Source: Gemmata obscuriglobus
GTDB taxonomy: Bacteria; Planctomycetota; Planctomycetia; Gemmatales; Gemmataceae
Assembly (NCBI RefSeq): GCF_008065095.1
Contig: NZ_CP042911.1
Span: 450,001-482,000, forward strand
Length of the DNA: 32,000 nucleotides
Direction: 5' to 3'
Shown: positions 13,138 through 29,486 of the stretch, piece by piece
Layout of the letters: the number at the start of each line of letters is the position of its first letter
Position numbering within the stretch: position 1 is the first letter of the stretch
The notes under the pieces: model-generated
Told to the model about the DNA's origin: nothing
What the model saw: only the letters and a program-made list of their open reading frames with translations
Databases searched by the model: none
Translations under genes and position numbers: made by a program

Positions 13138-13241
13138 GGGATTTCGTCGGGGCGGGTGGGGCCGGTCGGTGAGTTGGTAGTATACCGGGACGAACCGGAC
13201 GATTGCAAATACCATCGGTCCGCCTTTTGATTGGAGCACAC

Positions 13242-15590
13242 ATGCGCTGCCTCGTTGCTCTTGTCGTCGGCTGCGCGCTCGCGCCCCGCGCGCACGCCCA
13301 GCCGTCGGTGCCGGCCGCGGAGCCGTACCGGGCCGCCGTGGCGGAGGCCGAGAAGCTCATCGAGCACGAGGTCGGGGACAAGAAGCTCCCGGCGCTCTCG
13401 GTCGCGCTGGTGGACGATCAGAAGGTGGTCTGGGCCGCCGGGTACGGGTTTCAGGACCGCGGGCGTAAAACCCCGGCCACCGCGGAAACCGTGTACCGCG
13501 TGGGGTCGGTGTCGAAGCTGTTCACCGATGTCGCGGTGATGCAGTTGGTGGAAGACGGCAAGCTCGACATCGACGCGCCGGTGGCGAAGTATGTCCCCGA
13601 GTTCAAGCCGTCTTACAGGGACGGCGAAAAGCCGATCACGCTGCGGATGCTGATGTCGCACCGGTCGGGTCTGATCCGCGAACCACCAACCGGGAACTAC
13701 TTCGACCCTTCGGAGCCGAGCCTCGAGAAGACGGTACTGAGCATGAACGGCATCGGACTGGTGTACCCGCCGTCGTCGCGCATGAAGTACTCGAACGCGG
13801 CCATCGGGGTGGTCGGGTACACGCTCCAGCAGTCGCAAAAGGAGCAGTTCGAGAAGTACGTTCAGCGGCGCGTGATCGACCCGCTGGGGATGAACGCGAG
13901 TTCGTTCCTTCCCACCGCCGGGGTCAAAAAAGGGCTCGCGGACGCGGTGATGTGGACGTACCACGGAAAGGAGTTCCCGGCGCCGACCTTCGAGCTGGGC
14001 GCGGCCCCCGCGGGGTGCATGTACTCGACCGTTCTGGACCTCGCGAAGTTCCAGTCGTGCCTGTTCGCGGACGGAAAAGTGGCCGATAAGGCGTTCCTGA
14101 AGCCCGAGAGCATCAAGGAGATGCTGAGCCCGCAGTTTTCCGAGAACGACGCCCTGCGGCAGTTCGGCCTGGGGTTCGTGCTCGGCGAACTCGACGGTAA
14201 GAAGCGTGTGGGGCATGGTGGCGCCATTTACGGTTTCGCGACCGAGTTCGCGCTGCTCCCGGGTGAGAAGCTCGGGGTGGTCGTGGTGTCGTCGCGCGAC
14301 TCGTCCAACGCTGTCGTCACCCGGATCGCGAACGACCTGCTGCGGCTCGCGGTCGCGGCCAAGGCCGGCAAACCGCTACCGGCGATCGAAACCAGCGAAC
14401 CGCTGAAGCCCGAAGAGACCCGGGCGCTGGTCGGCCGCTACCGCAGCGGCGACCGGTGGCTCGACCTGTCCGAGTCCTTCGGCCGGCTGTTCGTGGAATC
14501 GGGCCGCGGCGGCTCCCGCATCGAACTCCGGAAAGCGCCCGGCGGTCTCGTCGCCGATGACGTGACCGCGTGGGGCGCCCGGTACACCCTTACTGATGGC
14601 AAGCTCGCGATCGGGAAGTTTACGTTCGAGAAAGAGAAGCCCCGCGCCGCGGCTCCCGCGGACGCCCCCGGGAAGTTCGCGGGGCTGATCGGCGAGTACG
14701 GCTGGGATCACCTGCCGCTCATCATCTACGAGAAAGACGGCCAGCTCCACGCGCTCATCGAGCTGACCGAGATCGACCCGTTGACCCAGGAATCGGACGA
14801 CGTGTTCGCGTTCCCTCCGGACCGCGGGATGTACTACGGCGAGAAGCTCGTGTTCTCGCGCGACAAGACCGGCCGGGCGACGAAGGTGACGTGCGCGAGC
14901 GTGGTCATGGACCGCCGCAAACTGGACGGCGAGAACGGCGAGACGTTCAAGGTGAAGCCGACCAAGCCGCTCGCGGAGGTTCGCAAGGGCGCACTGGCCG
15001 CGACACCGCCCGTCGAAAAGGGCGAGTTCCTCAAGCCCGATCTGATCGACCTCGCCACGATCGAGGGCGTGAAGTTCGACATCCGGTACGCGACCGACAA
15101 CAACTTCCTTAGCGCCCCGTTCTACACGTCGGCGAAGGCGTTCATGCAGAAGCCGGCCGCCGCGGCGCTCGCGCGCGTTCACACGACGCTGAAGGAGCAG
15201 GGGTACGGGCTTCTGGTGTTCGACGCGTATCGGCCGTGGCACGTCACGAAGATGTTCTGGGACGCGACACCCGAGAAGTTTCACGGCTTCGTCGCCGACC
15301 CGTCGAAGGGCTCGCGCCACAACCGCGGGTGCGCGGTCGATCTTGCCCTGTACGACCTGAAGACCGGCAAGCCGATCGAGGTGGTGAGCGGGTACGACGA
15401 GTTCTCCGACCGCGCGTTCCCGGACTACATGGGCGGCACTTCAAAGCAGCGCTGGCACCGCGACCTGTTGCGGCGAGCGATGGAGGCCGAGGGGTTCACG
15501 GTGTATGAGGAGGAATGGTGGCACTTCGACTACAAGGACTGGAAGAAGTACCCCATCCTGAACAAGACCTTCGAGGAGCTGACGCGCTGA
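13242..15590 (+). CDS. Secreted fusion protein: serine hydrolase (beta-lactamase/PBP fold) + middle domain + VanX/DdpX-type D-Ala-D-Ala dipeptidase (M15D)
   Basis: Signal peptide MRCLVALVVGCALAPRAHA with GGAG 5 nt upstream of the ATG at 13242. Hydrolase motifs: SVSK (13506-13517), YSN, GHGG. The C-terminal domain carries SRHNRGCAVD (15312-15341) and EEWWHFD (15510-15530), the Zn-ligand/catalytic signatures of VanX-type dipeptidases, plus IRYATDNNF. Confidence 0.85.
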   Translation: MRCLVALVVGCALAPRAHAQPSVPAAEPYRAAVAEAEKLIEHEVGDKKLPALSVALVDDQKVVWAAGYGFQDRGRKTPATAETVYRVGSVSKLFTDVAVMQLVEDGKLDIDAPVAKYVPEFKPSYRDGEKPITLRMLMSHRSGLIREPPTGNYFDPSEPSLEKTVLSMNGIGLVYPPSSRMKYSNAAIGVVGYTLQQSQKEQFEKYVQRRVIDPLGMNASSFLPTAGVKKGLADAVMWTYHGKEFPAPTFELGAAPAGCMYSTVLDLAKFQSCLFADGKVADKAFLKPESIKEMLSPQFSENDALRQFGLGFVLGELDGKKRVGHGGAIYGFATEFALLPGEKLGVVVVSSRDSSNAVVTRIANDLLRLAVAAKAGKPLPAIETSEPLKPEETRALVGRYRSGDRWLDLSESFGRLFVESGRGGSRIELRKAPGGLVADDVTAWGARYTLTDGKLAIGKFTFEKEKPRAAAPADAPGKFAGLIGEYGWDHLPLIIYEKDGQLHALIELTEIDPLTQESDDVFAFPPDRGMYYGEKLVFSRDKTGRATKVTCASVVMDRRKLDGENGETFKVKPTKPLAEVRKGALAATPPVEKGEFLKPDLIDLATIEGVKFDIRYATDNNFLSAPFYTSAKAFMQKPAAAALARVHTTLKEQGYGLLVFDAYRPWHVTKMFWDATPEKFHGFVADPSKGSRHNRGCAVDLALYDLKTGKPIEVVSGYDEFSDRAFPDYMGGTSKQRWHRDLLRRAMEAEGFTVYEEEWWHFDYKDWKKYPILNKTFEELTR

Positions 15591-15678
15591 TCGCGCTCGC
15601 GGAGCGGTACGAGCCGGCCGCGGACGACCGTTCGAGTTTGCTCCGGCCGCCCCAACGATCGTGCGGCCGCAAACGACA

Positions 15679-15705
15679 CGGCCCCGGGAGGGGATCCCGG
15701 GGCCG
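15679..15705. terminator. Strong GC hairpin in a convergent gap (candidate bidirectional terminator, no U tract)
   Basis: CGGCCCCGGGA (15679-15689), loop GGGGA, TCCCGGGGCCG (15695-15705): a perfect 11-bp stem. It lies between the stops at 15590 (+) and 15740 (-). Confidence 0.45.
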
Positions 15706-15739
15706 CGGCGAGTCAGCGGGCTGGCGCCCGCCGATTCGG

Positions 15740-16543
15740 TCAGTGGATCGCAAGGACGCGCGGTTGCGGCGCGATTTCGAACTCCTGCTCCTCTTCCTCG
15801 CGGCCGGGGCGGCGCTCACCGCCCGGCCCACCGGGACCGCGCCCGCCGGGCCTCATACCCGGTTGCCCGCCGGGGCCGCCCGGCCCACGCCCACCCGGGC
15901 CGAACCCGCCTGGGGCTCCGAAGCCGAACCCGCCGCGCCCGCCCGGACCCGCCGGGCCGGAGAACCCGCCTCGCCCACCCGGCTCGCCTGGTCCGAAGCC
16001 GCCGCGCCCGCCGCGCCCACTCGGTCCCGCGGCCGGGCCACCCGGACCGCGGCCGTGGATCGCCCCGATCAGCTTCCGCGCGGCGACCGCCTTCGCCGGA
16101 TCGTCCCCGTCGGCCAGCTTCTGCAGCGCCGGCAGGGCCGCCGGCCCGACCGCCACCAGTGCCCCGCGGGCGCTGTCACGCACCGTGTCATGCGGATCGG
16201 TAATCTTGCTCAACAGCGTTGCCACCCACGCGTCTACCACCGCGTCGGACTTCGGTGCCGGCCCCTTCGGACCGGACGCGCCTCTCTCGTCACCTTTCCT
16301 CTCGAATTTCTTCTCCTCGAATTTCCTCTCCTCGCCCTTCCGGTCGCCTTTCTTGTCGCCCTTCTTGTCTTCACCTTTACCTTTGCCGAACGGCGGTTGC
16401 CCCTTACCGAACGCCGGACCGCCCTTGCCGAACGGGGGCTGATTGTCGTCCGCGCCGTCCTGTTGCGCCATCACCACCACCGCCGATCCCGCGATCCCGA
16501 TCACCAGGACCGCCGGGGCGAACACCTTCGAGAGCCAAAACAT
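15740..16543 (-). CDS. Secreted/anchored low-complexity protein: PFGKG repeats, K/D/E-rich tract, HEAT-like repeats, RGG/GFGPG repeats
   Basis: ATG at the complement of 16541-16543 with GGAG 7 nt upstream. N-terminal hydrophobic segment MFWLSKVFAPAVLVIGIAGSAVVVMA. Three 21-nt repeats (about 16383-16445) encode PPFGKG units. HEAT-like segment DPHDTVRDSARGALVAVGPAALPALQKLADGDDPAKAVAARKLI. The C-terminal part is GGRGGFGPG-type repeats. Confidence 0.65.
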   Translation of the reverse strand: MFWLSKVFAPAVLVIGIAGSAVVVMAQQDGADDNQPPFGKGGPAFGKGQPPFGKGKGEDKKGDKKGDRKGEERKFEEKKFERKGDERGASGPKGPAPKSDAVVDAWVATLLSKITDPHDTVRDSARGALVAVGPAALPALQKLADGDDPAKAVAARKLIGAIHGRGPGGPAAGPSGRGGRGGFGPGEPGGRGGFSGPAGPGGRGGFGFGAPGGFGPGGRGPGGPGGQPGMRPGGRGPGGPGGERRPGREEEEQEFEIAPQPRVLAIH

Positions 16544-16584
16544 GTACGTTCTCCGCAGCGCGGGAGAGGTCTGATCCGGGGCGA

Positions 16585-16610
16585 AACGGTCGCCCAACGG
16601 ATCGCGTTCC
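16585..16610 (-). promoter_or_regulatory. ECF-type promoter candidate GGAAC-N17-CGTT upstream of the low-complexity protein gene
   Basis: Minus strand: GGAAC (complement of 16606-16610), a 17-nt spacer (16589-16605), and CGTT (complement of 16585-16588), about 42 nt upstream of the ATG at 16543. The shape matches classical group-4 sigma promoters. Confidence 0.35.
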
Positions 16611-16737
16611 CTGGCATAATGACAAACGGTGGGCGTTCGGCGTCGCGACCCGTGCTCAGAACCTTTTCATGGGCCGGCCCGCGGTCGCGGCCCTCGGCCG
16701 GCGGCGTTTAATTCATGAGACCGACGAGGGCGTGCTG

Positions 16738-17367
16738 ATGGCCGTGGAAGCCGAAAAGGATATTGCGGACCTGCTGGGCCGGGTGCGCGGCGGCGACCAG
16801 CCGGCGCTGGCCGAGCTGTTCGCCAAGCACCGCGACAAGCTGCGCCGGATGGTGCAACTGCGGCTGGACCCTCGGCTCACGGGCCGCGTTTCGCCGTCGG
16901 ACGTGCTGCAAGAGGCGTACATCGACGCGCTGAAGCGCATCGACCACTACTTCGAGAAGCCGGACCAGCCGTTTTTCGGCTGGCTGCGGTTGGTCGTGGG
17001 GCAGCGGTTGGCCGATGTCCACCGCGAGCACCTGGCTCAGAAGCGCGACATCGGTCAGGAGGTCTCGATCGACCGCGGCGCGACCGCCGCCGACTCGGCG
17101 TGCCTGGCCGCGTGCCTGCTCGGGAACGGGAGCAGCCCGAGCCACGCCGCCGCCCGCACCGAGTCGTTCGCGCGGCTCGAGCAGGCCCTCGCGGCGATGG
17201 ACCCGCTCGACCGCGAGGTGCTGGCCCTGCGGCACTTCGAGGAGCTGAGCAACACCGAAACGGCCTCCCTACTGGGGGTGCAGCCCGCGGCCGCCAGCAA
17301 GCGGTACGTCCGGGCGCTGGCCCGGCTCAAACAGATTCTGGAAACGATCCCCGGGTTCACCGGGTGA
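16738..17367 (+). CDS. ECF (group 4) sigma-70 family RNA polymerase sigma factor
   Basis: Region 2 (ALAELFAKHRDKLRRMV...DVLQEAYIDALKR...FFGWLRLVVGQRLADVHREH) and region 4 (LDREVLALRHFEELSNTETASLLGVQPAAASKRYVRALARL). ATG at 16738 with GAGGG 7 nt upstream. The track ORF starting at 16219 is an over-extension. Confidence 0.9.
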   Translation: MAVEAEKDIADLLGRVRGGDQPALAELFAKHRDKLRRMVQLRLDPRLTGRVSPSDVLQEAYIDALKRIDHYFEKPDQPFFGWLRLVVGQRLADVHREHLAQKRDIGQEVSIDRGATAADSACLAACLLGNGSSPSHAAARTESFARLEQALAAMDPLDREVLALRHFEELSNTETASLLGVQPAAASKRYVRALARLKQILETIPGFTG

Positions 17368-17403
17368 CGCGCCCCGCTCCGGCCCGCCCGAGACAGGTGC
17401 CCC

Positions 17404-19800
17404 ATGCTCTCCGACGACCGCGACCCCGTGGACGTGCTGGCCGAGGAGTTCGCCGACCGGCTCCGGCGGGGCGAGCACCCGTCCGTGAGCGCCTACGCGG
17501 CGGCCCACCCCGACCACGCGGAGCAGTTGCGCGAGCTGCTACCCGCGGTCGCACAGATGGAACTGCTCAAGCGGTTCCGCACCCCCGGCGCGGAGCCGTC
17601 GCTCCCGGACCGCCTGGGCGACTTCCGCATCGTGCGCGAACTCGGCCGCGGCGGCATGGGGGTGGTGTTCGAGGCGGTTCAAGAATCGCTCGGGCGGCCC
17701 GTCGCGCTGAAGGTGCTCGCCCGGCACGCCCAGCTCGACCGGACCCGGCGCGAGCGGTTCGTGCGCGAGGCGCAGGCCGCGGCCAAATTGCACCACACGA
17801 ACATCGTGCCGGTGTTCGGCGTCGGGGAGCAGGACGGGCTGCCGTACTACGTCATGCAACTGATCCCCGGGTGCGGGCTCCACGCGCTCGTCCGCCTGTG
17901 GCGGCGGCAGCTCGGCAGGAGTGCCGAAGCGGCCCGCGAGACGCTCGCGCACGGCCCCGGGACGAAGCCCGCCGCGGCCCCGCCTTACGAGGCCGTTGAG
18001 CCGGAGCCGGACGGCCCGAACTACGGCGACTGGCGGTTCGTTGCCGGGGCCGGGCTCCAGGCGGCCGAGGCGCTCGATTACGCCCACCAGCACGGCGTGC
18101 TGCACCGCGACGTGAAGCCCGCGAACCTGCTGTTCGACGGCGCGAGCGTGTGGGTCGCGGACTTCGGCCTCGCGAAGCTGATGAACGCCGACGGCCTCAC
18201 CGCGACCGGCGACATCCTGGGCACGCTCCAGTACGTGCCGCCCGAAGGGCTGAGCGGCCGGTCCGACGACCGCAGCGACGTGTACGGCCTCGGGGCCACG
18301 CTGTACGAGCTGCTGACGCTCGAACCGCCCTACTCCGCGGACTCGCCCGCGCGCCTCGTCAAGCAAGTGACTGACGCGGACCCGCCGCCGCCCCGGGCGC
18401 TCAACCCCGATATTCCCCGGGACCTGGAAACCATCGTGCTGAAGGCGATGGCCCGCGAGCCGTCGGCCCGGTACCCCAGCGCGCGCGAGCTGGCCGACGA
18501 CCTCGACGCCTTCCTCAACGACCGGCCCATCAAGGCCCGGCGGCTGTCGCTCCCGGCGCGCGTGTGGCGCGTGTGCCGGCGGAACCCCGCGGTCGCCTCG
18601 CTGACGGCCACCACAGTCGCAGCCCTGGCCCTGGCCGCGGTGACCGGGTGGGTCTGGTTCGCGCGCGAAGAGGACCGGCGCAAGGAGGCCGAGGAAGCGC
18701 GGGCCAAAGCCGACCGGGCGACCGCCGAGGCCGTCGCGCTTTCGGCTCGGCTCGAGGCGAATTTGAAGCTGTCGCTGGACACGATGGAGAAGGTGTTCGA
18801 GGTGGCCAGCGCGAGCGGCCAACCCGGATCGTGGCTGCCCATCCCGCGCGGGCCGATCGGCGGGCGCGGCCCCGAGCACCGCGGGCCGTTCGGCGGGTTC
18901 GGGCCGAAGGACGGACCGTTCGGCGGCCCGAAGGACGGGTCCAAAGACGGCCAGGACGGCGGCCCCGGCGGCCCGCACACCGAACTCGCCGCCGACAAGG
19001 CCGCGATCCTCGAAGCGGTGCTCGCGTTTTACGACAAGTTCGTGGAGCAGAACCCGCCGACCCCGCGGCTCCAGTTCGAGGCCGCCAAGGCGTCGCGCCG
19101 GGTGTGCGAGGCCCATATGTGGCTGCGGCGGCCCGAGAAGGCGGCGGCCGCGTTCGACCGCGCGGTGACGCTCCTGGAGCCGCTCGTCCGAGACAACAAG
19201 GACAACGAGGGGATGCGGACCGAACTGGTGATGGCGTACCTGACCGCGCCGCCGGGCGTGTTCCCGCAGGACCCCGAGCGGCCGCTCCGCCGCGCCGCCG
19301 AACTGGCCGAAGGGCGCGAGTGGCTGAGTGGGTCGGTGAGGGTGCGGGCCGGCTGGACCGCGGAGCAGGGCGGCAACCGTACCGCGGCTGCGGCGAACTA
19401 CGATGCAGCGATCGTGTCGTTCACGGACCCCGAGGTGGTCCCGCCGGCGCATGCGCACCTCGAACTAGGGTTCACACGCTATCGACTCGCGAGCGTGCTG
19501 TCGGCGCAAGGGAAGTTGTCCCTGGCGCGCAAGACGCTCGAAGAGTCGGTGGAATCGCTCGCCCCACTGGCCGGACCTCCGACGGAGCGCCCGGGCGAGG
19601 GACCGCGTCTCCGCCACGAGCGCGAGCTGCTGGCTGCGACCTACGGCGCGTTGGCCGAAGTCTGCGCCCGGCTGAACGACACCCGCGCGTCCTGGAACGC
19701 ATCCGATAAAGCCACGCAATACGGCGAGTTCGGCGGCTTCGGCGGCATGCGGGGCAAAAAGGACGGCAAGAAGGACTGGCAGCCGCTCAAGAAAAATTAG
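17404..19800 (+). CDS. Membrane Ser/Thr protein kinase with extracytoplasmic G/P-rich and helical-repeat region
   Basis: GRGGMGVVF...VALKVL, HRDVKPANLL, DFGLAK, GTLQYVPPE. A single TM (AVASLTATTVAALALAAVTGWVWFA) follows the kinase domain. An insert of roughly 60 aa lies between the hinge and the catalytic loop. The gene starts 36 nt after the sigma gene stop. Confidence 0.9.
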   Translation: MLSDDRDPVDVLAEEFADRLRRGEHPSVSAYAAAHPDHAEQLRELLPAVAQMELLKRFRTPGAEPSLPDRLGDFRIVRELGRGGMGVVFEAVQESLGRPVALKVLARHAQLDRTRRERFVREAQAAAKLHHTNIVPVFGVGEQDGLPYYVMQLIPGCGLHALVRLWRRQLGRSAEAARETLAHGPGTKPAAAPPYEAVEPEPDGPNYGDWRFVAGAGLQAAEALDYAHQHGVLHRDVKPANLLFDGASVWVADFGLAKLMNADGLTATGDILGTLQYVPPEGLSGRSDDRSDVYGLGATLYELLTLEPPYSADSPARLVKQVTDADPPPPRALNPDIPRDLETIVLKAMAREPSARYPSARELADDLDAFLNDRPIKARRLSLPARVWRVCRRNPAVASLTATTVAALALAAVTGWVWFAREEDRRKEAEEARAKADRATAEAVALSARLEANLKLSLDTMEKVFEVASASGQPGSWLPIPRGPIGGRGPEHRGPFGGFGPKDGPFGGPKDGSKDGQDGGPGGPHTELAADKAAILEAVLAFYDKFVEQNPPTPRLQFEAAKASRRVCEAHMWLRRPEKAAAAFDRAVTLLEPLVRDNKDNEGMRTELVMAYLTAPPGVFPQDPERPLRRAAELAEGREWLSGSVRVRAGWTAEQGGNRTAAAANYDAAIVSFTDPEVVPPAHAHLELGFTRYRLASVLSAQGKLSLARKTLEESVESLAPLAGPPTERPGEGPRLRHERELLAATYGALAEVCARLNDTRASWNASDKATQYGEFGGFGGMRGKKDGKKDWQPLKKN

Positions 19801-19813
19801 CCGCCCTCGCGTT

Positions 19814-19935
19814 GTGTCTGGAGTGTGGCCCGCTCGCTCCGCGAGCGGTGCTTCGCGCGTCAGATCACGGTTACGAATCGCAGCACCGGCCACATCGCAA
19901 CCGCTCGCGGAGTGAGCGGACCACACCCCAGACAC
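19814..19935. repeat. Long inverted repeat (35-nt arms, 52-nt spacer) filling the convergent kinase / heme-protein gap; REP/MITE-like element or bidirectional terminator
   Basis: The left arm, GTGTCTGGAGTGTGGCCCGCTCGCTCCGCGAGCGG (19814-19848), pairs with the right arm, CCGCTCGCGGAGTGAGCGGACCACACCCCAGACAC (19901-19935), at 32 of 35 positions. The three differences are all transitions. Each arm also contains its own small hairpin (CCGCTCGC-TCC-GCGAGCGG). Confidence 0.7.
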
Positions 19936-19959
19936 CACACGGGTTCCGCGCGAACCGCG

Positions 19960-21732
19960 TCAATCGTCCTTCGCGGGCGGGATCGGGTCGACCGGCTTTA
20001 CCGCCTTCGGTTCGACCGGCGCGGGCGCCTCGGCCTTCCCGTCCTTCTCGTCCTTCGGAGCCGGCGCGTCGAACGCAGCCAGGTACGCCGAGAAGCCCTT
20101 GTAGCTGTCGAGCGGGTAATCCTCCTGCTTCTTGCCCGGCGCGTGGCACGTCGCGCACCGGTTGTCGATCAGCGTCTTGATCTTCACCTTACCGTCTTTC
20201 ACGAAGTCCGGCGTGACGGCCTTGTCGCCCCCGCCCGGGAACTCGAACGTGTCGGCCTCGTAGCTGCTCTTGCGCACCGCGTCCGGGCTGCGCGCCCACG
20301 CGACCAGCGCATTAAGGTCGCTCTGGCGCTGGGCCTTGAGCTTGTCCTGCTCGGCCGGCGAGCCGCTCTTCATCGCGTCCGCGTACTTCTTTTCCTTGTC
20401 GAAGAACGCGCGGATCATGCCGCCGTCTTCCCCCCCCGCGAACTTCAGCTCGGTCAGCGGAACCGGCTTGCCCGCGGGATCGAGCGGCCGCGTCAACAGC
20501 CGGTCGATTTCGTTGATCGGCTTCTTGGGCGTGACCACCACCGGAACAAAAGGTTCCTTCTTGTCTTCCATCTTCTTGTCCTCAGGCTTCTTGACCTCGG
20601 GCTTCTTGATCTCGGGCTTGCCCGCGTCCGGTTCCGGGTCCGCGGCCTGCTTGTCCTCGACCTTCGGCTTCGGCAGGGCGGGCACGAGCAACTTCGTCAC
20701 GAACGCCCCGCCCGCGACCGCGCCCACCACGAACAGCAGCCCGATCACCACCCGCCCCTTGAGCCCGTACATGGTGAACAGGCTGCCGGCGATGTGGACG
20801 AACAGCCCGACGGCGGCGAGGAACCCGGTGAGGATCACGGCCATCGCGAAGAACGGCCCGTACTCGTCGCACAGCCGGGCGAGCCACCACATCGACACGT
20901 CCGCGAACACCATGACCACGACCCACGGCCCGCCGATCACGCGCATCCACGCCGGCCAACTGCTCAGCGCGAAGATCAGCCCCGTGAGCGAGAACAGCAC
21001 CGCGAAGCTCAGCAGGTGGGCGTGGGTCGATTGCGTCAGCTTGCTGATGCTGATCGGCTCCTCGACCTTGATGTAGCCGTACTTGTCGGGCTGCGGCGGG
21101 GGCGGCGGGGGCGGAACGAACTTCATCAGCCCCGCGTAGCTGTCGAGCGCCGGCTCCTCCTTCTCGCCGCCCTTCGAGTGGCACGTCACGCACCGGGAGT
21201 CGATCAGCGTCTTGATCTTGACCGCGTCGCCGTCCTTCAGCCCCGCGGTCAGGGCCTTCGGCGTCTTGCCGGCGGGCGGCACGAACTTGTCGGCCTCGTA
21301 GGCCGCCTTACGCTCCGCGTCCGGCGTGCGGATCCACTGCACGAGCACCCGCTGCTCGCCCTTGCGCTCGGCCCGCACCTCGGCCTCCGGGCGCGCCTTG
21401 ACGTGCTCCGAGAACTTGAGGTGCTTCGGCCCGCGGTCGTGCGCGGTGAACGCGCCGGCCATCGTGCTGCCGTTGATCTCTTCCGTCTGGGCGACGATCA
21501 GCGCCTCGAGCCGGGATGCCGGTGACTCCGGGGGCGGCGCGTTGGGGTCGAACTTCTTCTTGCCGGTGAACTTCAGCACCACGTCCTCGGGCGTGGGCAT
21601 CGGCTTGCCGGACTTCGAGTCCTGGATGTGCAGTTGCAGCACCGCCGACGAGTACCCGGCGCCCACCGCGAGCAGGAACACGGTCGCCACCACCTTGACG
21701 GGCAGGGGCAGGTCACGGAGCGTGTAACTCAT
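19960..21732 (-). CDS. Polytopic membrane protein with two duplicated CxxCH (c-type heme-binding, PSCyt1-like) modules
   Basis: CVTCH (21178-21192) and CATCH (20143-20157). Each sits in a repeated module: W(I/A)R.PDA.RK..YEAD.F...G....T....KDG.VKIKTLID.RC.TCH..G.K.E..LDSY.G. TM1 is near the N-terminus and four TMs lie between the modules. GGAG lies 8 nt upstream of the ATG at 21732. Confidence 0.75.
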   Translation of the reverse strand: MSYTLRDLPLPVKVVATVFLLAVGAGYSSAVLQLHIQDSKSGKPMPTPEDVVLKFTGKKKFDPNAPPPESPASRLEALIVAQTEEINGSTMAGAFTAHDRGPKHLKFSEHVKARPEAEVRAERKGEQRVLVQWIRTPDAERKAAYEADKFVPPAGKTPKALTAGLKDGDAVKIKTLIDSRCVTCHSKGGEKEEPALDSYAGLMKFVPPPPPPPQPDKYGYIKVEEPISISKLTQSTHAHLLSFAVLFSLTGLIFALSSWPAWMRVIGGPWVVVMVFADVSMWWLARLCDEYGPFFAMAVILTGFLAAVGLFVHIAGSLFTMYGLKGRVVIGLLFVVGAVAGGAFVTKLLVPALPKPKVEDKQAADPEPDAGKPEIKKPEVKKPEDKKMEDKKEPFVPVVVTPKKPINEIDRLLTRPLDPAGKPVPLTELKFAGGEDGGMIRAFFDKEKKYADAMKSGSPAEQDKLKAQRQSDLNALVAWARSPDAVRKSSYEADTFEFPGGGDKAVTPDFVKDGKVKIKTLIDNRCATCHAPGKKQEDYPLDSYKGFSAYLAAFDAPAPKDEKDGKAEAPAPVEPKAVKPVDPIPPAKDD

Positions 21733-29100: not shown

Positions 29101-29486
29101 ACGAGGCGATCCTCCGTGCGAACGAGGCCCGGTTCCGGCCGATCCTCATGACGACCGTGATGCTGGTGGCGGCGATGATCCCCATCGCGACCGGGAGCGG
29201 CCCCGGGGCCGGCGCCCGGGCCAGCATGGCGAAGGTGATCCTCGGCGGGCAACTCCTGTCGCTGCTGCTGTCGCTCCTGGTGACGCCGGTGGCGTACTCG
29301 ATCTGGGACGACATGATGAACCGCGGGAAGCGGGTGGCGGCGTGGATCGACCGGCGGCGCACGCGGCCGGCCCCGGCGGCAATCGCGATGGCGGAACCGG
29401 TCGCGGAGCACGCGGCGGCCGAAACGGTTCAGGAAGTGCCGGTGTTCCGGGAGGCCGAATCGGACGCCGCCCCGACCGGGTCGTAA
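26133..29486 (+). CDS. RND efflux transporter permease (AcrB/HAE-type), carrying an in-frame repeat-derived insert in the TM6-TM7 cytoplasmic loop
   Basis: 1117-aa ORF. N-terminal IRRPVFTTMLVLGPVVLGMASYGRLGVELFPNVDVPVVVVTT. Twelve-TM architecture with two large periplasmic loops. GLILAVGIVIDDAVVVLENV is an RND TM4 motif. Confidence 0.95.
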   Translation: MAIWDICIRRPVFTTMLVLGPVVLGMASYGRLGVELFPNVDVPVVVVTTTLRGAGVEEMESSVTRPVEEAVNTVSGIDELRSTTKEGVSSVVIGFKLERNGDIAAQDVRDRISTLLPRLPYGTDAPVVEKFNLDAAPVVTVVVSGGPGRKLREVTEIAKKQIKEDLEGVTGVGSVVLVGGEQRAVNVTLRPERLRALSPPLSPEDVRRALAAQNIELPGGKVDGGAQERGLRVVGRIQTPADFENVIIETRTDENGLKYAVRVKDVADVTDDIEEPRGKSRLDGNVAVSLVIQKQSGGNTVAVADRVKERLAKIQSGLPADIKTEIIRDQSKFIKGSIEEVKFHLVLAAVLVIATIFIFLRDWRATLIAATAVPTSIVGTFAFMDVMGFSLNNMTLLGLILAVGIVIDDAVVVLENVFRYTEEYGLSGWDAASKATKEIALAVVATTLSLVVIFAPIAFMSGQVGRFFNSFGFVVAFAIMMSMAVSFTLTPMLCARLLRGPTPPAPLPEGKGEKEPSRADHEPGAHTASESDSPTPFREGTGVGSSHAHSSGWLTRWYVGTLAWSLRHRWVIVLATVITFLSTPVLFVLVGTDFVPKDDQSEFEVAITLKEGSTLATAEAQCAELEEKLKKVRGVTNVFTVIGPTDGRAPKGQGDVTQVNIYCRMSDISLRDFAQRDAMADARVVLADYPDLRTSVQDVKLISSSAFKNAQLDLSIRGPDGDKLDRYAAEIMKKMKANPKFTDVDTNAAARSPELQVRIDRQRAADQKVNVQGVATALSLLVGGEPVTKYKEGSDQYDVWLRAALPSRDRSATIDQLLVPDTKGQMVELRTLARLADERGPATIERYNRQRQIGVQCNFAPGVALGNVLPEVEGYVKELDLPPEYRYEFLGEAKLMADSNANFLLAFFLAFVFMYMILAAQFESLVHPITILMAVPLTLPFALISLMLLRTPLDIYAMIGLFMLFGIVKKNGILQVDYTNVLIAKGLPRDEAILRANEARFRPILMTTVMLVAAMIPIATGSGPGAGARASMAKVILGGQLLSLLLSLLVTPVAYSIWDDMMNRGKRVAAWIDRRRTRPAPAAIAMAEPVAEHAAAETVQEVPVFREAESDAAPTGS
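27639..27759. mobile_element. MITE/RPE-like insert with terminal inverted repeats inside the RND ORF (in frame)
   Basis: The left end, CCCCCGGCCCCCCTCCCTGAAGGGAAGGGGGAG (27639-27671), and the right end, CTCCCCCACTCCCTTCAGGGAGGGGACGGGGG (27728-27759), are imperfect inverted copies of each other. The codons across the segment show clearly more A/T third positions (gga, cct, gaa, aaa, gat, act, gta, ggt) than the flanking codons. Confidence 0.55.

What the first reader, a model, noticed from the sequence alone, without database searches (positions are those of the whole stretch)
15740..19800. ECF sigma / Ser-Thr kinase pair divergent from a low-complexity secreted protein that shares motifs with the kinase ectodomain
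- The sigma factor (16738-17367) has no adjacent anti-sigma gene. It is followed 36 nt later by a membrane Ser/Thr kinase, the arrangement known for the kinase-linked ECF group (ECF43 type).
- The divergently transcribed gene (15740-16543) has an ECF-shaped promoter candidate.
- Its product shares unusual low-complexity motifs with the kinase's extracytoplasmic part. The kinase carries GPFGGFGPKDGPFGGPKDGSKDG and a C-terminal GGFGGMRGKKDGKKD. The neighbour carries PPFGKG x3, KKGDKKGDRKG and GGRGGFGPG repeats.

Hypothesis: this is a three-part sensing module in which the secreted repeat protein is both the target and a ligand or partner of the kinase.
Basis: inference. Interest (0 to 1): 0.65.

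Follow-up and report, generated by a model that had tools for sequence, protein, structure and literature searches.

The report
Kinase-switched sigma factor with conserved periplasmic target
A Gemmata gene trio (a sigma factor, the membrane kinase that probably switches it on, and a mostly disordered secreted protein driven by the same promoter motif as the sigma gene) is a conserved envelope-signalling unit, but nothing yet shows that the secreted protein binds the kinase.

Summary
Window 15740-19800 (Gemmata algarum) encodes an ECF sigma factor (NCBIfam TIGR02984). A Hanks-type membrane Ser/Thr kinase follows 36 nt later. A divergent gene encodes a signal-peptide protein that is about 75% disordered around a 65-residue HEAT-like core.

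New here: one bipartite motif, GTCGC-N16-CGTTT, lies on both strands of the 194-bp intergenic region, once facing each gene. These are the only two exact matches in 32 kb. Across 26 related loci the strict motif (N16-17) lies within 150 nt upstream of the secreted-protein gene in 13 (about 0.02 expected). This includes genomes where the sigma/kinase pair is not adjacent. The trio itself recurs in 16 loci.

The sigma's acidic core-binding motif (DAED) reads SPSD in all orthologues, which fits activation by phosphorylation. Most relatives of the secreted protein also carry a C-terminal Spy/CpxP-like LTXXQ domain; this copy lacks it.

So "target of the sigma" is well supported by sequence evidence. 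"Ligand or partner of the kinase" is not. The shared G/K/D/F/P low-complexity flavour is real and unusual locally. But it is compositional, restricted to one clade, and a mirror-tree test found no specific co-evolution.

Verdict: a new variant of the known kinase-ECF kind, arranged like cpxP-cpxRA. The strict "ECF43" label is doubtful.

The parts
15740..16543 (-). rep: gene for a 267-aa exported protein, mostly disordered, with a HEAT-like core
   Evidence: ORF and conserved ATG start. It has 94 homologues, all from Gemmataceae or Planctomycetota sources. In the AlphaFold2 model only residues about 100-165 are ordered.
16463..16543 (-). N-terminal hydrophobic segment (residues 1-27): signal peptide or membrane anchor
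   Evidence: MFWLSKVFAPAVLVIGIAGSAVVVMAQ is conserved across homologues. No Cys, so not a lipoprotein. Read by eye; no signal-peptide predictor was available.
16253..16462 (-). Low-complexity region 1 (residues 28-97): [PA]FGKG x3, KKGD and EEKKF repeats
   Evidence: Translation; in-frame tandem repeats of period 21, 12 and 15 nt; pLDDT below 50.
16049..16252 (-). HEAT-like helical core (residues 98-165), the only well-conserved part
   Evidence: Invariant columns W106, D116, H118, D119, R122 and others. pLDDT about 90. Pfam HEAT_2 scores 16.6 bits, below the cutoff. Best Foldseek matches are alphaRep, armadillo and CpcE proteins. In the 1.84-billion-protein library, 95 clusters match at E<=1e-10.
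15743..16048 (-). Low-complexity region 2 (residues 166-267): GGRGGF/GPGG repeats, an acidic run and a conserved ...EIAPQPR-type tail; no LTXXQ domain
   Evidence: Translation; 36-nt-period repeat; disordered in the model; compared with long-form homologues.
16624..16649 (-). P_rep: GTCGC-N16-CGTTT facing rep
   Evidence: Exact match. Footprint across 15 sequences. The strict motif lies upstream of rep in 13 of 26 loci, and relaxed variants in most of the rest.
16584..16610 (-). Second candidate in the rep leader: GGAAC-N17-CGTTT, the canonical ECF shape
   Evidence: 2 matches in the window, 0.05 expected. Only partly conserved in relatives. Status unresolved.
16655..16671 (.). Conserved block CTCAGAnnnTTTTCATG between the two -35 boxes
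   Evidence: Alignment of the intergenic regions. Function unknown.
16684..16709 (+). P_sigma: GTCGC-N16-CGTTT facing the sigma-kinase operon (presumed autoregulation)
   Evidence: Conserved with N16-17 spacing in the orthologous loci.
16738..17367 (+). ECF sigma factor, 209 aa
   Evidence: TIGR02984 at 231.9 bits (cutoff 183.75); Sigma70_ECF, r4_2 and r2. Locus orthologues are 70-92% identical. The 120 best database hits are 76-96% identical.
16891..16902 (+). Sigma region 2.2, S52-P53-S54-D55, in place of the acidic DAED motif: candidate phospho-switch
   Evidence: Aligns with CnrH D-V-D-D and SigW E-A-E-D. S-[PA]-S-D is invariant in 18 orthologues.
17404..19800 (+). Membrane Hanks-type Ser/Thr kinase, 798 aa
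   Evidence: Pkinase at 129.8 bits. K103, HRD(234-236), N241 and DFG(253-255) are invariant. Foldseek matches PknB at E 8e-11.
17404..17583 (+). Near-invariant N-terminal helical module (residues 1-60) ahead of the kinase domain
   Evidence: Alignment A1; helices at 8-21, 28-34 and 36-57. No Pfam family covers it.
17623..18513 (+). Catalytic domain (residues about 74-370), with a variable insert at about 170-205
18586..18663 (+). Single predicted transmembrane helix (residues about 395-420)
   Evidence: Hydrophobic stretch AVASLTATTVAALALAAVTGWVWF; long helix 395-421 in the model.
18811..18975 (+). Ectodomain low-complexity linker (residues about 470-524), including GPFGGFGPKDGPFGGPKDGSKDG
   Evidence: pLDDT below 50. 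Length and sequence vary among orthologues.
18976..19728 (+). Periplasmic TPR-like alpha-solenoid (residues about 525-775)
   Evidence: pLDDT 80-95, ten helices. TPR Pfam families are recorded on orthologues.
19729..19797 (+). C-terminal low-complexity tail: FGGFGGMRGKKDGKKDWQPLKKN
   Evidence: A GGKKDG...PPKK-type tail recurs in orthologues.

Best explanation
This is a conserved Gemmataceae envelope-signalling module of the kinase-switched ECF type, with one conserved periplasmic output.

1. The single-pass kinase senses something in the periplasm through its TPR-like ectodomain (inferred).
2. It phosphorylates the sigma factor on Ser52 or Ser54 of the SPSD motif. That motif replaces the acidic DAED patch sigma factors use to bind RNA polymerase, so phosphorylation restores the negative charge and activates the sigma. 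This is inferred by analogy with EcfP/PknT.
3. The active holoenzyme reads GTCGC-N16/17-CGTTT promoters. One drives the sigma-kinase operon itself (positive autoregulation). The other, back to back with it, drives rep. The motif pair and its conservation are shown; its recognition by this sigma is inferred.
4. Rep is exported. It consists of a small HEAT-like binding core held between two long disordered regions. Most relatives add a Spy/CpxP-like LTXXQ domain, which this copy has lost.
5. Rep most likely acts in the periplasm as a stress-induced binding or chaperone-like protein. The layout mirrors cpxP-cpxRA, so feedback onto the kinase is plausible (about 0.3) but not shown.
For: **Family and architecture.**
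- Sigma family assignment and kinase catalytic residues.
- SPSD aligns with the acidic motifs of CnrH and SigW and is invariant in orthologues.
- Loss of DAED together with a Ser or Thr is the published hallmark of kinase-activated ECFs (PMC8999054, PMC8103513, PMC13147305).

**Synteny.**
- The trio occurs in 16 loci across Gemmata, Frigoriglobus, Urbifossiella and unnamed MAGs.
- 34 of 94 rep homologues share a contig length with a listed sigma or kinase orthologue, 22 of them on contigs under 10 kb. This is an indirect measure.
- The flanking genes are not retained at the same depth.

**Promoter motif.**
- The same motif lies on both strands of the intergenic region.
- There are 27 strict matches in 308 kb: 13 just upstream of rep, 11 upstream of sigma, 3 elsewhere. 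About 0.02 are expected upstream of rep.
- The motif is kept upstream of rep in Limnoglobus, where no sigma or kinase lies within the 8-kb flanks. It is also kept in CJuql4, where the pair sits elsewhere on the same scaffold.

**Rep structure and relatives.**
- Ordered core with disordered flanks.
- LTXXQ in the long forms: Pfam 25.1 bits against a cutoff of 24.3 for P0070. A profile search of PDB is led by a 'VirG-like protein' (5ihf, family not checked), followed by four Spy entries, at E 0.004-0.02.
- The long form is the commoner form among the family representatives inspected.
Against: - There are no expression or phosphorylation data of any kind.
- The -35 box GTCGC lacks the AAC usual for ECF promoters. 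Only the -10 CGT fits (PMC8103513).
- One acidic residue, D55, is retained, so the sigma may not be fully inactive when unphosphorylated. The same is reported for EcfK (PMC13147305).
- Close relatives are not independent observations, which inflates the motif counts.
- The rep in this window lacks the LTXXQ domain, so the chaperone analogy rests on its relatives.
- The HEAT assignment is below Pfam's threshold, and the Foldseek E-values are 0.04 or higher.
- Export is inferred by eye from the N-terminal hydrophobic segment.
Confidence: 0.62

Rival explanations
1. Rep is both a target and a direct ligand or inhibitor of the kinase. The contact is made through the matching FG/K/D-rich disordered regions, or between the HEAT core and the TPR solenoid, giving CpxP-like negative feedback.
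For: - The G/K/D/F/P low-complexity flavour is found only in rep proteins and their cognate kinases within 369 kb of sampled neighbourhoods.
- Both regions are predicted to be periplasmic and disordered.
- The low complexity is concentrated in the same clade in both families.
- The divergent layout and the LTXXQ relatives parallel cpxP-cpxRA.
- The best structural matches of the core are armadillo and alphaRep proteins, several of them solved in complex with K/R-rich peptides.
Against: - No specific co-evolution between the rep core and the kinase ectodomain: partial Mantel r 0.20-0.23, p 0.09-0.15 (12 taxa, low power).
- The low-complexity sequences are not conserved motif for motif.
- Among 15 same-contig pairs, 9 are positive in both proteins, 5 are discordant (one of those kinases is truncated and one falls just below the threshold) and 1 is negative in both.
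- Urbifossiella has the kinase low-complexity region without the rep FGKG/KKD region.
- In the wider rep family this flavour is rare, 8 of 63.
- The repeats look like independent microsatellite-type expansions.
Confidence: 0.22
2. Rep is only an output effector, a stress-induced periplasmic protein like Spy, and never touches the kinase. The similar low complexity reflects a shared compartment and a shared mutational bias.
For: - The promoter evidence makes rep a regulon member.
- The mirror-tree test is negative.
- The low complexity arises from in-frame repeat expansion.
- Rep stays in the regulon when it is unlinked from the kinase.
Against: - This does not explain why this low-complexity flavour is absent from all other sampled ORFs.
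- Tight divergent linkage in most genomes is more typical of accessory regulators such as CpxP than of bulk effectors.
Confidence: 0.4
3. The adjacency is inherited gene order with no regulatory meaning. The shared motif is either read by a different regulator or sigma factor, or is a chance or structural feature of the intergenic DNA.
For: - Several of the loci are close relatives that also share the downstream beta-lactamase/VanX gene.
- The -35 box is atypical for ECF promoters.
Against: - The trio persists where the flanks have changed.
- The motif follows rep to unlinked positions in CJuql4, and in Limnoglobus where the pair is not within the fetched flanks.
- 24 of 27 strict matches lie at the two expected positions, in the correct orientation.
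Confidence: 0.06
4. Rep is an unconventional membrane-anchored anti-sigma factor for the adjacent sigma.
For: It has an N-terminal hydrophobic segment and sits next to a sigma gene that has no annotated anti-sigma.
Against: - The hydrophobic segment starts at about residue 5, so there is no room for a cytoplasmic anti-sigma domain.
- No anti-sigma family matches it.
- The whole conserved core would lie outside the cytoplasm.
Confidence: 0.03

Closest known systems
EcfP-PknT (Vibrio parahaemolyticus) and EcfK-PknS (Xanthomonas citri), the studied ECF43 systems
   Same: - An ECF sigma with no anti-sigma factor, co-encoded with a single-pass Hanks-type kinase.
- The acidic DAED patch of region 2.2 is replaced by hydroxyl residues.
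- Like EcfK (QATE), one acidic residue is retained (PMC8999054, PMC13147305).
   Different: - The motif is SPSD with Ser, not the QTTA/STTA Thr type.
- The sigma belongs to the planctomycete TIGR02984 set.
- The kinase ectodomain is a TPR-like solenoid with disordered low-complexity segments.
- There is a conserved divergent periplasmic target gene. I found no such third component described for ECF43 in the papers I could read.
Planctomycetal kinase-linked ECF groups (ECF59-ECF62, ECF217; the ECFSTK groups of Jogler et al. 2012)
   Same: Same phylum, same kinase linkage, no anti-sigma factor. A Ser in place of the acidic residue is reported for ECF59 and the original ECF60 (PMC7826278, PMC8103513).
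   Different: Group assignment could not be made here, because no ECF-group models were available and the supplementary group descriptions are not held. Whether those descriptions already list this neighbour gene or this promoter motif is unknown.
cpxP-cpxRA of Escherichia coli (Cpx envelope stress response)
   Same: A small periplasmic protein is encoded divergently from the sensor/regulator operon. It is itself driven by that regulator, and the operon is autoregulated. Relatives of rep carry an LTXXQ (CpxP/Spy-type) domain. The Cpx layout and CpxP feedback are from established knowledge.
   Different: - The transducer is a Ser/Thr kinase plus a sigma factor, not a histidine kinase plus a response regulator.
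- The rep in this window has no LTXXQ domain.
- The conserved part is a HEAT-like core that CpxP lacks.
- Inhibition of the sensor is not shown.
Spy (periplasmic ATP-independent chaperone)
   Same: The C-terminal domain of long-form homologues aligns with Spy over both LTxxQ motifs. Stress-regulon membership is inferred.
   Different: The E-values are borderline (0.004-0.02). The domain is absent from this copy, and the additional HEAT core and long disordered regions are not found in Spy.

Membership tests
Ser/Thr-kinase-regulated ECF sigma factors (general kind) | Sigma with only the sigma2 and sigma4 domains, ECF type | tested here: met
   Sigma70_ECF, r2, r4 and r4_2 only; TIGR02937 and TIGR02984.
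Ser/Thr-kinase-regulated ECF sigma factors (general kind) | No co-encoded anti-sigma factor | tested here: met
   The neighbours are rep and the kinase. Neither matches an anti-sigma family, and rep has no cytoplasmic N-terminal domain.
Ser/Thr-kinase-regulated ECF sigma factors (general kind) | Conserved adjacent Hanks-type kinase | tested here: met
   The kinase lies directly downstream in all orthologous loci whose contigs extend that far. In CJuql4 a 195-aa insert separates the two genes.
Ser/Thr-kinase-regulated ECF sigma factors (general kind) | Acidic DAED motif of region 2.2 replaced by Ser/Thr | tested here: met
   SPSD: two of the three acidic positions are Ser, and it is invariant in orthologues. 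D55 is retained.
Ser/Thr-kinase-regulated ECF sigma factors (general kind) | Activity depends on phosphorylation by the cognate kinase | not testable with these tools
   Needs a kinase assay and phospho-site mutants.
ECF43 in the strict sense | Conserved Thr in a QTTA-type motif (88% of members, PMC13147305) | tested here: not met
   The motif is SPSD, with Ser at the equivalent position.
ECF43 in the strict sense | Match to the ECF43 group model of the ECF classification | not testable with these tools
   No ECF-group HMMs were available, and cluster names give no group.
NCBIfam TIGR02984 (Sig-70_plancto1) | Score above the curated cutoff | tested here: met
   231.9 bits against a cutoff of 183.75, over the full model length.
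Hanks-type Ser/Thr protein kinases | Catalytic Lys, HRD...N loop, DFG motif and kinase fold | tested here: met
   K103, H234-R235-D236, N241 and D253-F254-G255 are invariant. Pkinase scores 129.8 bits. Foldseek matches PknB.
CpxP/Spy (LTXXQ) family | LTXXQ helical domain present in this protein | tested here: not met
   No LTXXQ hit for the window protein, and its C-terminus is low-complexity only. Long-form homologues do have the domain, at borderline scores.
CpxP/Spy (LTXXQ) family | Periplasmic protein whose gene is induced by the envelope sensor system it neighbours (how CpxP works) | tested here: inconclusive
   The shared conserved promoter motif supports induction. There are no expression data.
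CpxP/Spy (LTXXQ) family | Binds and inhibits the sensor kinase | not testable with these tools
   The mirror-tree proxy was negative or weak.
HEAT/armadillo repeat proteins | Paired-helix repeats recognised by family models or by fold | tested here: inconclusive
   HEAT_2 scores 16.6 bits against a cutoff of 27.7. The same weak hit recurs in homologues. The confident helical core best matches alphaRep, armadillo and CpcE proteins, but at E of 0.04 or higher.
Class I membrane anti-sigma factors | Cytoplasmic anti-sigma domain N-terminal to a transmembrane helix | tested here: not met
   In rep the hydrophobic segment begins at about residue 5.

The most novel reading that the evidence does not exclude
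Rep and the kinase ectodomain recognise each other through their matching FG- and K/D-rich disordered regions. This would be a periplasmic disordered-region-to-disordered-region, or disordered-region-to-HEAT/TPR, contact. The sigma's own product would then titrate or tune the kinase. That would make a CpxP-like feedback loop rebuilt on a Ser/Thr-kinase/sigma-factor chassis, and a rare case of low-complexity regions acting as the specificity element of a bacterial sensor.
Probability: 0.15. Interest if true: 0.8.

Novelty: new variant of a known kind. Interest (0 to 1): 0.5.

Why it matters
**Open questions for this class.**
- Kinase-activated ECF sigma factors have been studied in only two proteobacterial systems.
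- Their inputs are unknown.
- I found no conserved third component described for them.
- Gemmataceae encode about 100-150 Ser/Thr kinases (PMC11032199) and many ECFs, and almost none of these has an assigned function.

**What this locus offers.**
- A sigma that is very well conserved (70-92% identical across genera).
- A defined candidate phospho-site.
- A defined promoter motif.
- A single conserved output gene.

**Testable predictions that follow.**
- A reporter: P_rep with the sigma, with or without the kinase.
- Phosphomimetic S52/S54 variants of the sigma.
- Sigma activity after deleting rep.

**Wider points.**
- If rep feeds back on the kinase, the Cpx-type "periplasmic accessory protein" logic would have arisen on an unrelated signalling chassis.
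- The rep family (HEAT-like core plus LTXXQ domain, with long disordered linkers) is an uncharacterised set of planctomycete periplasmic proteins.

Tried and rejected
- **Sigma-70 promoter and terminator scan of 15500-20100:** nothing found.
- **Rfam on 15400-20200:** only weak miRNA-precursor hits, which come from a long hairpin downstream of the kinase.
- **Conserved RNA structure in the rep leader:** RNAalifold predicted no pairs. A hand-proposed GGGCG/CGCCC hairpin showed no covariation. Dropped.
- **Second promoter, GGAAC-N17-CGTTT, at 16584-16610:** an exact match here but only partly conserved. The other window match, at 29422, lies antisense inside an efflux-pump gene and is probably chance.
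- **Three strict motif matches away from rep and sigma (L008, L016, L027):** none has a convincing downstream gene. Treated as chance.
- **Mirror-tree test for co-evolution of the rep core and the kinase ectodomain:** not significant after partialling out phylogeny.
- **Pairwise presence or absence of the low complexity in cognate pairs:** mixed result.
- **ECF group assignment:** cluster names give no group. The supplementary group descriptions of PMC7826278 are not held. Jogler 2012, Iyer 2020 and Wiegand 2020 are not held.
- **Rep as an anti-sigma factor:** rejected on topology.

Full report
**What is there.** The window is from Gemmata algarum. In strain JC673, rep is 99.6% identical, the sigma 100% and the kinase 92%. 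The finding covers three genes.
- Rep, 15740-16543(-), 267 aa. The conserved start is the ATG at 16543 (MFW...), not the upstream TTG.
- An ECF sigma factor, 16738-17367(+). It scores 231.9 bits against NCBIfam TIGR02984 'Sig-70_plancto1' (cutoff 183.75), with Pfam Sigma70_ECF and r4_2.
- A 798-aa kinase, 17404-19800(+), 36 nt downstream. It has a Pkinase domain with invariant K103, HRD, N241 and DFG.

The flanks are a beta-lactamase/VanX fusion (13203-15590) and a convergent 590-aa membrane protein with CxxCH motifs (19960-21732).

**Anatomy of the proteins.** An AlphaFold2 model built on 21 homologues orders only residues about 100-165 of rep (pLDDT about 90, three to four helices). Everything else has pLDDT below 50. 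The ordered core is the only well-conserved part.
- It scores 16.6 bits on Pfam HEAT_2, below the cutoff.
- Its best structural matches are alphaRep, armadillo and CpcE-type HEAT proteins, at E of 0.04 or higher.
- The N-terminus is a signal-peptide-like hydrophobic segment. I read this by eye.

The kinase model shows five parts:
- a near-invariant 60-residue N-terminal helical module;
- the catalytic domain, which matches PknB by Foldseek at E 8e-11;
- one transmembrane helix and a coiled coil;
- a disordered linker (about 470-524) that holds the GPFGGFGPKDG repeats;
- a confident alpha-solenoid (524-773, pLDDT 80-95) and a disordered GGKKDG tail.

At the DNA level the low-complexity segments of both genes are short, degenerate, in-frame tandem repeats.

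**Synteny.** A scan of one genome per species with the rep alignment returned 27 loci.
- In 15 of them the sigma-kinase pair sits divergently next to rep. Identities are 70-92% for the sigma, 53-76% for the kinase and 37-76% for rep.
- Urbifossiella limnaea has the same trio. The scan missed it.
- The beta-lactamase/VanX neighbour is kept only in the closest seven loci, and the CxxCH gene only in JC673. So the trio outlasts its flanks.
- As an indirect check, 34 of 94 rep homologues share an exact contig length with a listed sigma or kinase orthologue, 22 of them on contigs under 10 kb.
- In isolate CJuql4 the pair and rep lie about 1.4 Mb apart on one scaffold, and a transposase-like ORF sits between the sigma and the kinase.

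**The key new result is a shared promoter motif.** Aligning the intergenic regions of 15 sequences shows the same bipartite element on both strands. GGTCGC-N16-CGTTT faces the sigma gene at 16684-16709(+), and GGTCGC-N16-CGTTT faces rep at 16649-16624(-).
- These are the only two exact matches in the 32-kb window (0.25 expected).
- Over 308 kb of related loci the strict motif (N16-17) occurs 27 times: 13 within 150 nt upstream of rep in the right orientation, 11 upstream of the sigma, and 3 elsewhere.
- The background rate predicts about 0.02 upstream of rep.
- The motif stays upstream of rep in Limnoglobus (L016, L017, L021, L025), in L026 and in CJuql4 (L022). In none of these is the sigma/kinase pair adjacent.
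- The -10 CGT and the 16-17-nt spacer fit ECF promoters. The -35 lacks the usual AAC (PMC8103513).
- Because ECF sigma factors typically autoregulate, the simplest reading is that this sigma drives both promoters. That last step is inference.
- A second, canonical-looking GGAAC-N17-CGTTT in the rep leader (16610-16584) is only partly conserved.

**How the sigma is probably switched.** In alignments to solved ECF sigma factors, S52-P53-S54-D55 occupies the acidic patch of region 2.2: D-V-D-D in CnrH and E-A-E-D in SigW. S-[PA]-S-D is invariant in 18 orthologues.
- Loss of this DAED patch and its replacement by a phosphorylatable residue is the published mechanism for kinase-activated ECFs. Thr is reported for ECF43, and Ser for ECF59 and the original ECF60.
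- Retention of one acidic residue is also seen in EcfK (PMC8999054, PMC8103513, PMC13147305).
- So the module belongs to the kinase-switched kind, but the strict 'ECF43' label fails the Thr/QTTA criterion. The exact group could not be assigned.

**What rep is related to.** The rep core defines a family of about 95 clusters at E<=1e-10 among 1.84 billion representatives. Most are 200-400-aa proteins with a single core.
- Many of the representatives inspected, apparently most, carry a C-terminal helical domain with two LTxxQ-type motifs.
- That domain reaches Pfam LTXXQ: 25.1 bits against a cutoff of 24.3 for P0070, and 23.9 for P0086. Other members give weaker but consistent LTXXQ and Metal_resist hits.
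- A profile of the domain searched against PDB is led by a 'VirG-like protein' (5ihf, family not checked) and then four Spy entries, at E 0.004-0.02.
- Long forms occur inside the trio (L011, L020, L023, Urbifossiella; P0075 with kinase P0147).
- The G. algarum protein is a derived short form without LTXXQ.
- The arrangement therefore parallels cpxP-cpxRA: a periplasmic accessory protein encoded divergently from, and induced by, an autoregulated envelope sensor. The signalling chassis here is different. The Cpx comparison rests on established knowledge, not on a test made here.

**Is rep a partner of the kinase?** The compositional resemblance is real. With a neutral filter (30-residue window, G>=8, K>=3, G+K+D+F+P>=22), only rep proteins and their cognate kinases pass among 1313 ORFs in 369 kb. 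Several results weaken it as evidence for an interaction.
- The segments vary freely between orthologues.
- The flavour is concentrated in the closest relatives: 60 of 120 kinase homologues and 53 of 94 rep homologues.
- It is rare in the wider rep family, 8 of 63.
- Urbifossiella has it in the kinase but not in rep's first disordered region.
- Of 15 cognate pairs, 9 are positive in both proteins.
- A mirror-tree test gives r=0.82 between the rep core and the kinase ectodomain. The partial correlation is only 0.20-0.23 (p 0.09-0.15) once kinase-domain or sigma distances are removed (12 taxa, low power).

I therefore rate direct feedback at about 0.2-0.3 and treat 'effector only' as at least as likely.

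**Verdict.** The 'three-part module' and 'target' parts of the interpretation are well supported computationally. The 'ligand or partner' part is open. Relative to known systems this is a new variant of the kinase-ECF kind, with a conserved periplasmic HEAT/LTXXQ-family output and a defined promoter motif. It is moderately interesting and directly testable.

Noticed in passing
window 19811-19938: A long, near-perfect hairpin (arms of about 40 nt) lies between the kinase stop codon and the convergent CxxCH membrane-protein gene. RNA folding gives -91 kcal/mol, z -6.9. The arms occur nowhere else in the window. It could be a bidirectional terminator or a REP/MITE-like element.
   Followed up: partly
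window 17080-17140 (sigma residues about 115-135): The sigma2-sigma4 linker has an invariant DSACLAACLLG (two Cys) followed by SPSHAAAR in all orthologues. This could be a redox-sensitive site or a second phospho-site, as reported for the EcfK linker.
   Followed up: no
window 16655-16671: A conserved block, CTCAGAnnnTTTTCATG, lies between the two back-to-back -35 boxes. It could be an UP-like element or the site of a second regulator.
   Followed up: no
window 17404-17583 (kinase residues 1-60): A near-invariant helical N-terminal module (DDRDPVDVLAEEFADRLRRGEHPSV...HP.HA..L.ELLPAVAQMELLKR) precedes the kinase domain. A paralogue in L027 has it too, and no Pfam family covers it. It is a candidate sigma-docking domain.
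   Followed up: no
L027:5050-8807: A paralogous sigma (42% identical, motif DPSD) and a truncated kinase are followed on the same strand by an EF-hand/LTXXQ secreted protein and a HEAT-LTXXQ rep homologue. This is a second, differently arranged link between these protein types.
   Followed up: partly
L029:5286-5873 (Gemmataceae isolate CJuql4): A 195-aa transposase-like ORF is inserted between the sigma and the kinase. In this genome rep lies about 1.4 Mb away on the same scaffold and still has the promoter motif.
   Followed up: partly
window 16544-16615 (rep 5' leader): The leader of about 73 nt has conserved blocks: CATTATG just after the -10, GGGCG...CGCCC, and CCTCTCC before the GGAG ribosome-binding site. 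No RNA structure or covariation could be supported.
   Followed up: yes
window 13203-15590: A single 795-aa ORF fuses a class-C-type beta-lactamase/PBP domain with a VanX-type D-Ala-D-Ala dipeptidase (Peptidase_M15). It is conserved next to rep in the closest seven genomes, which hints at a cell-wall-related neighbourhood.
   Followed up: no
window 15743-15800 (rep C-terminus): Short-form rep proteins end in a conserved acidic run followed by [IV]E[IV]AP[MQ]PR. This could be a sorting or processing signal.
   Followed up: no
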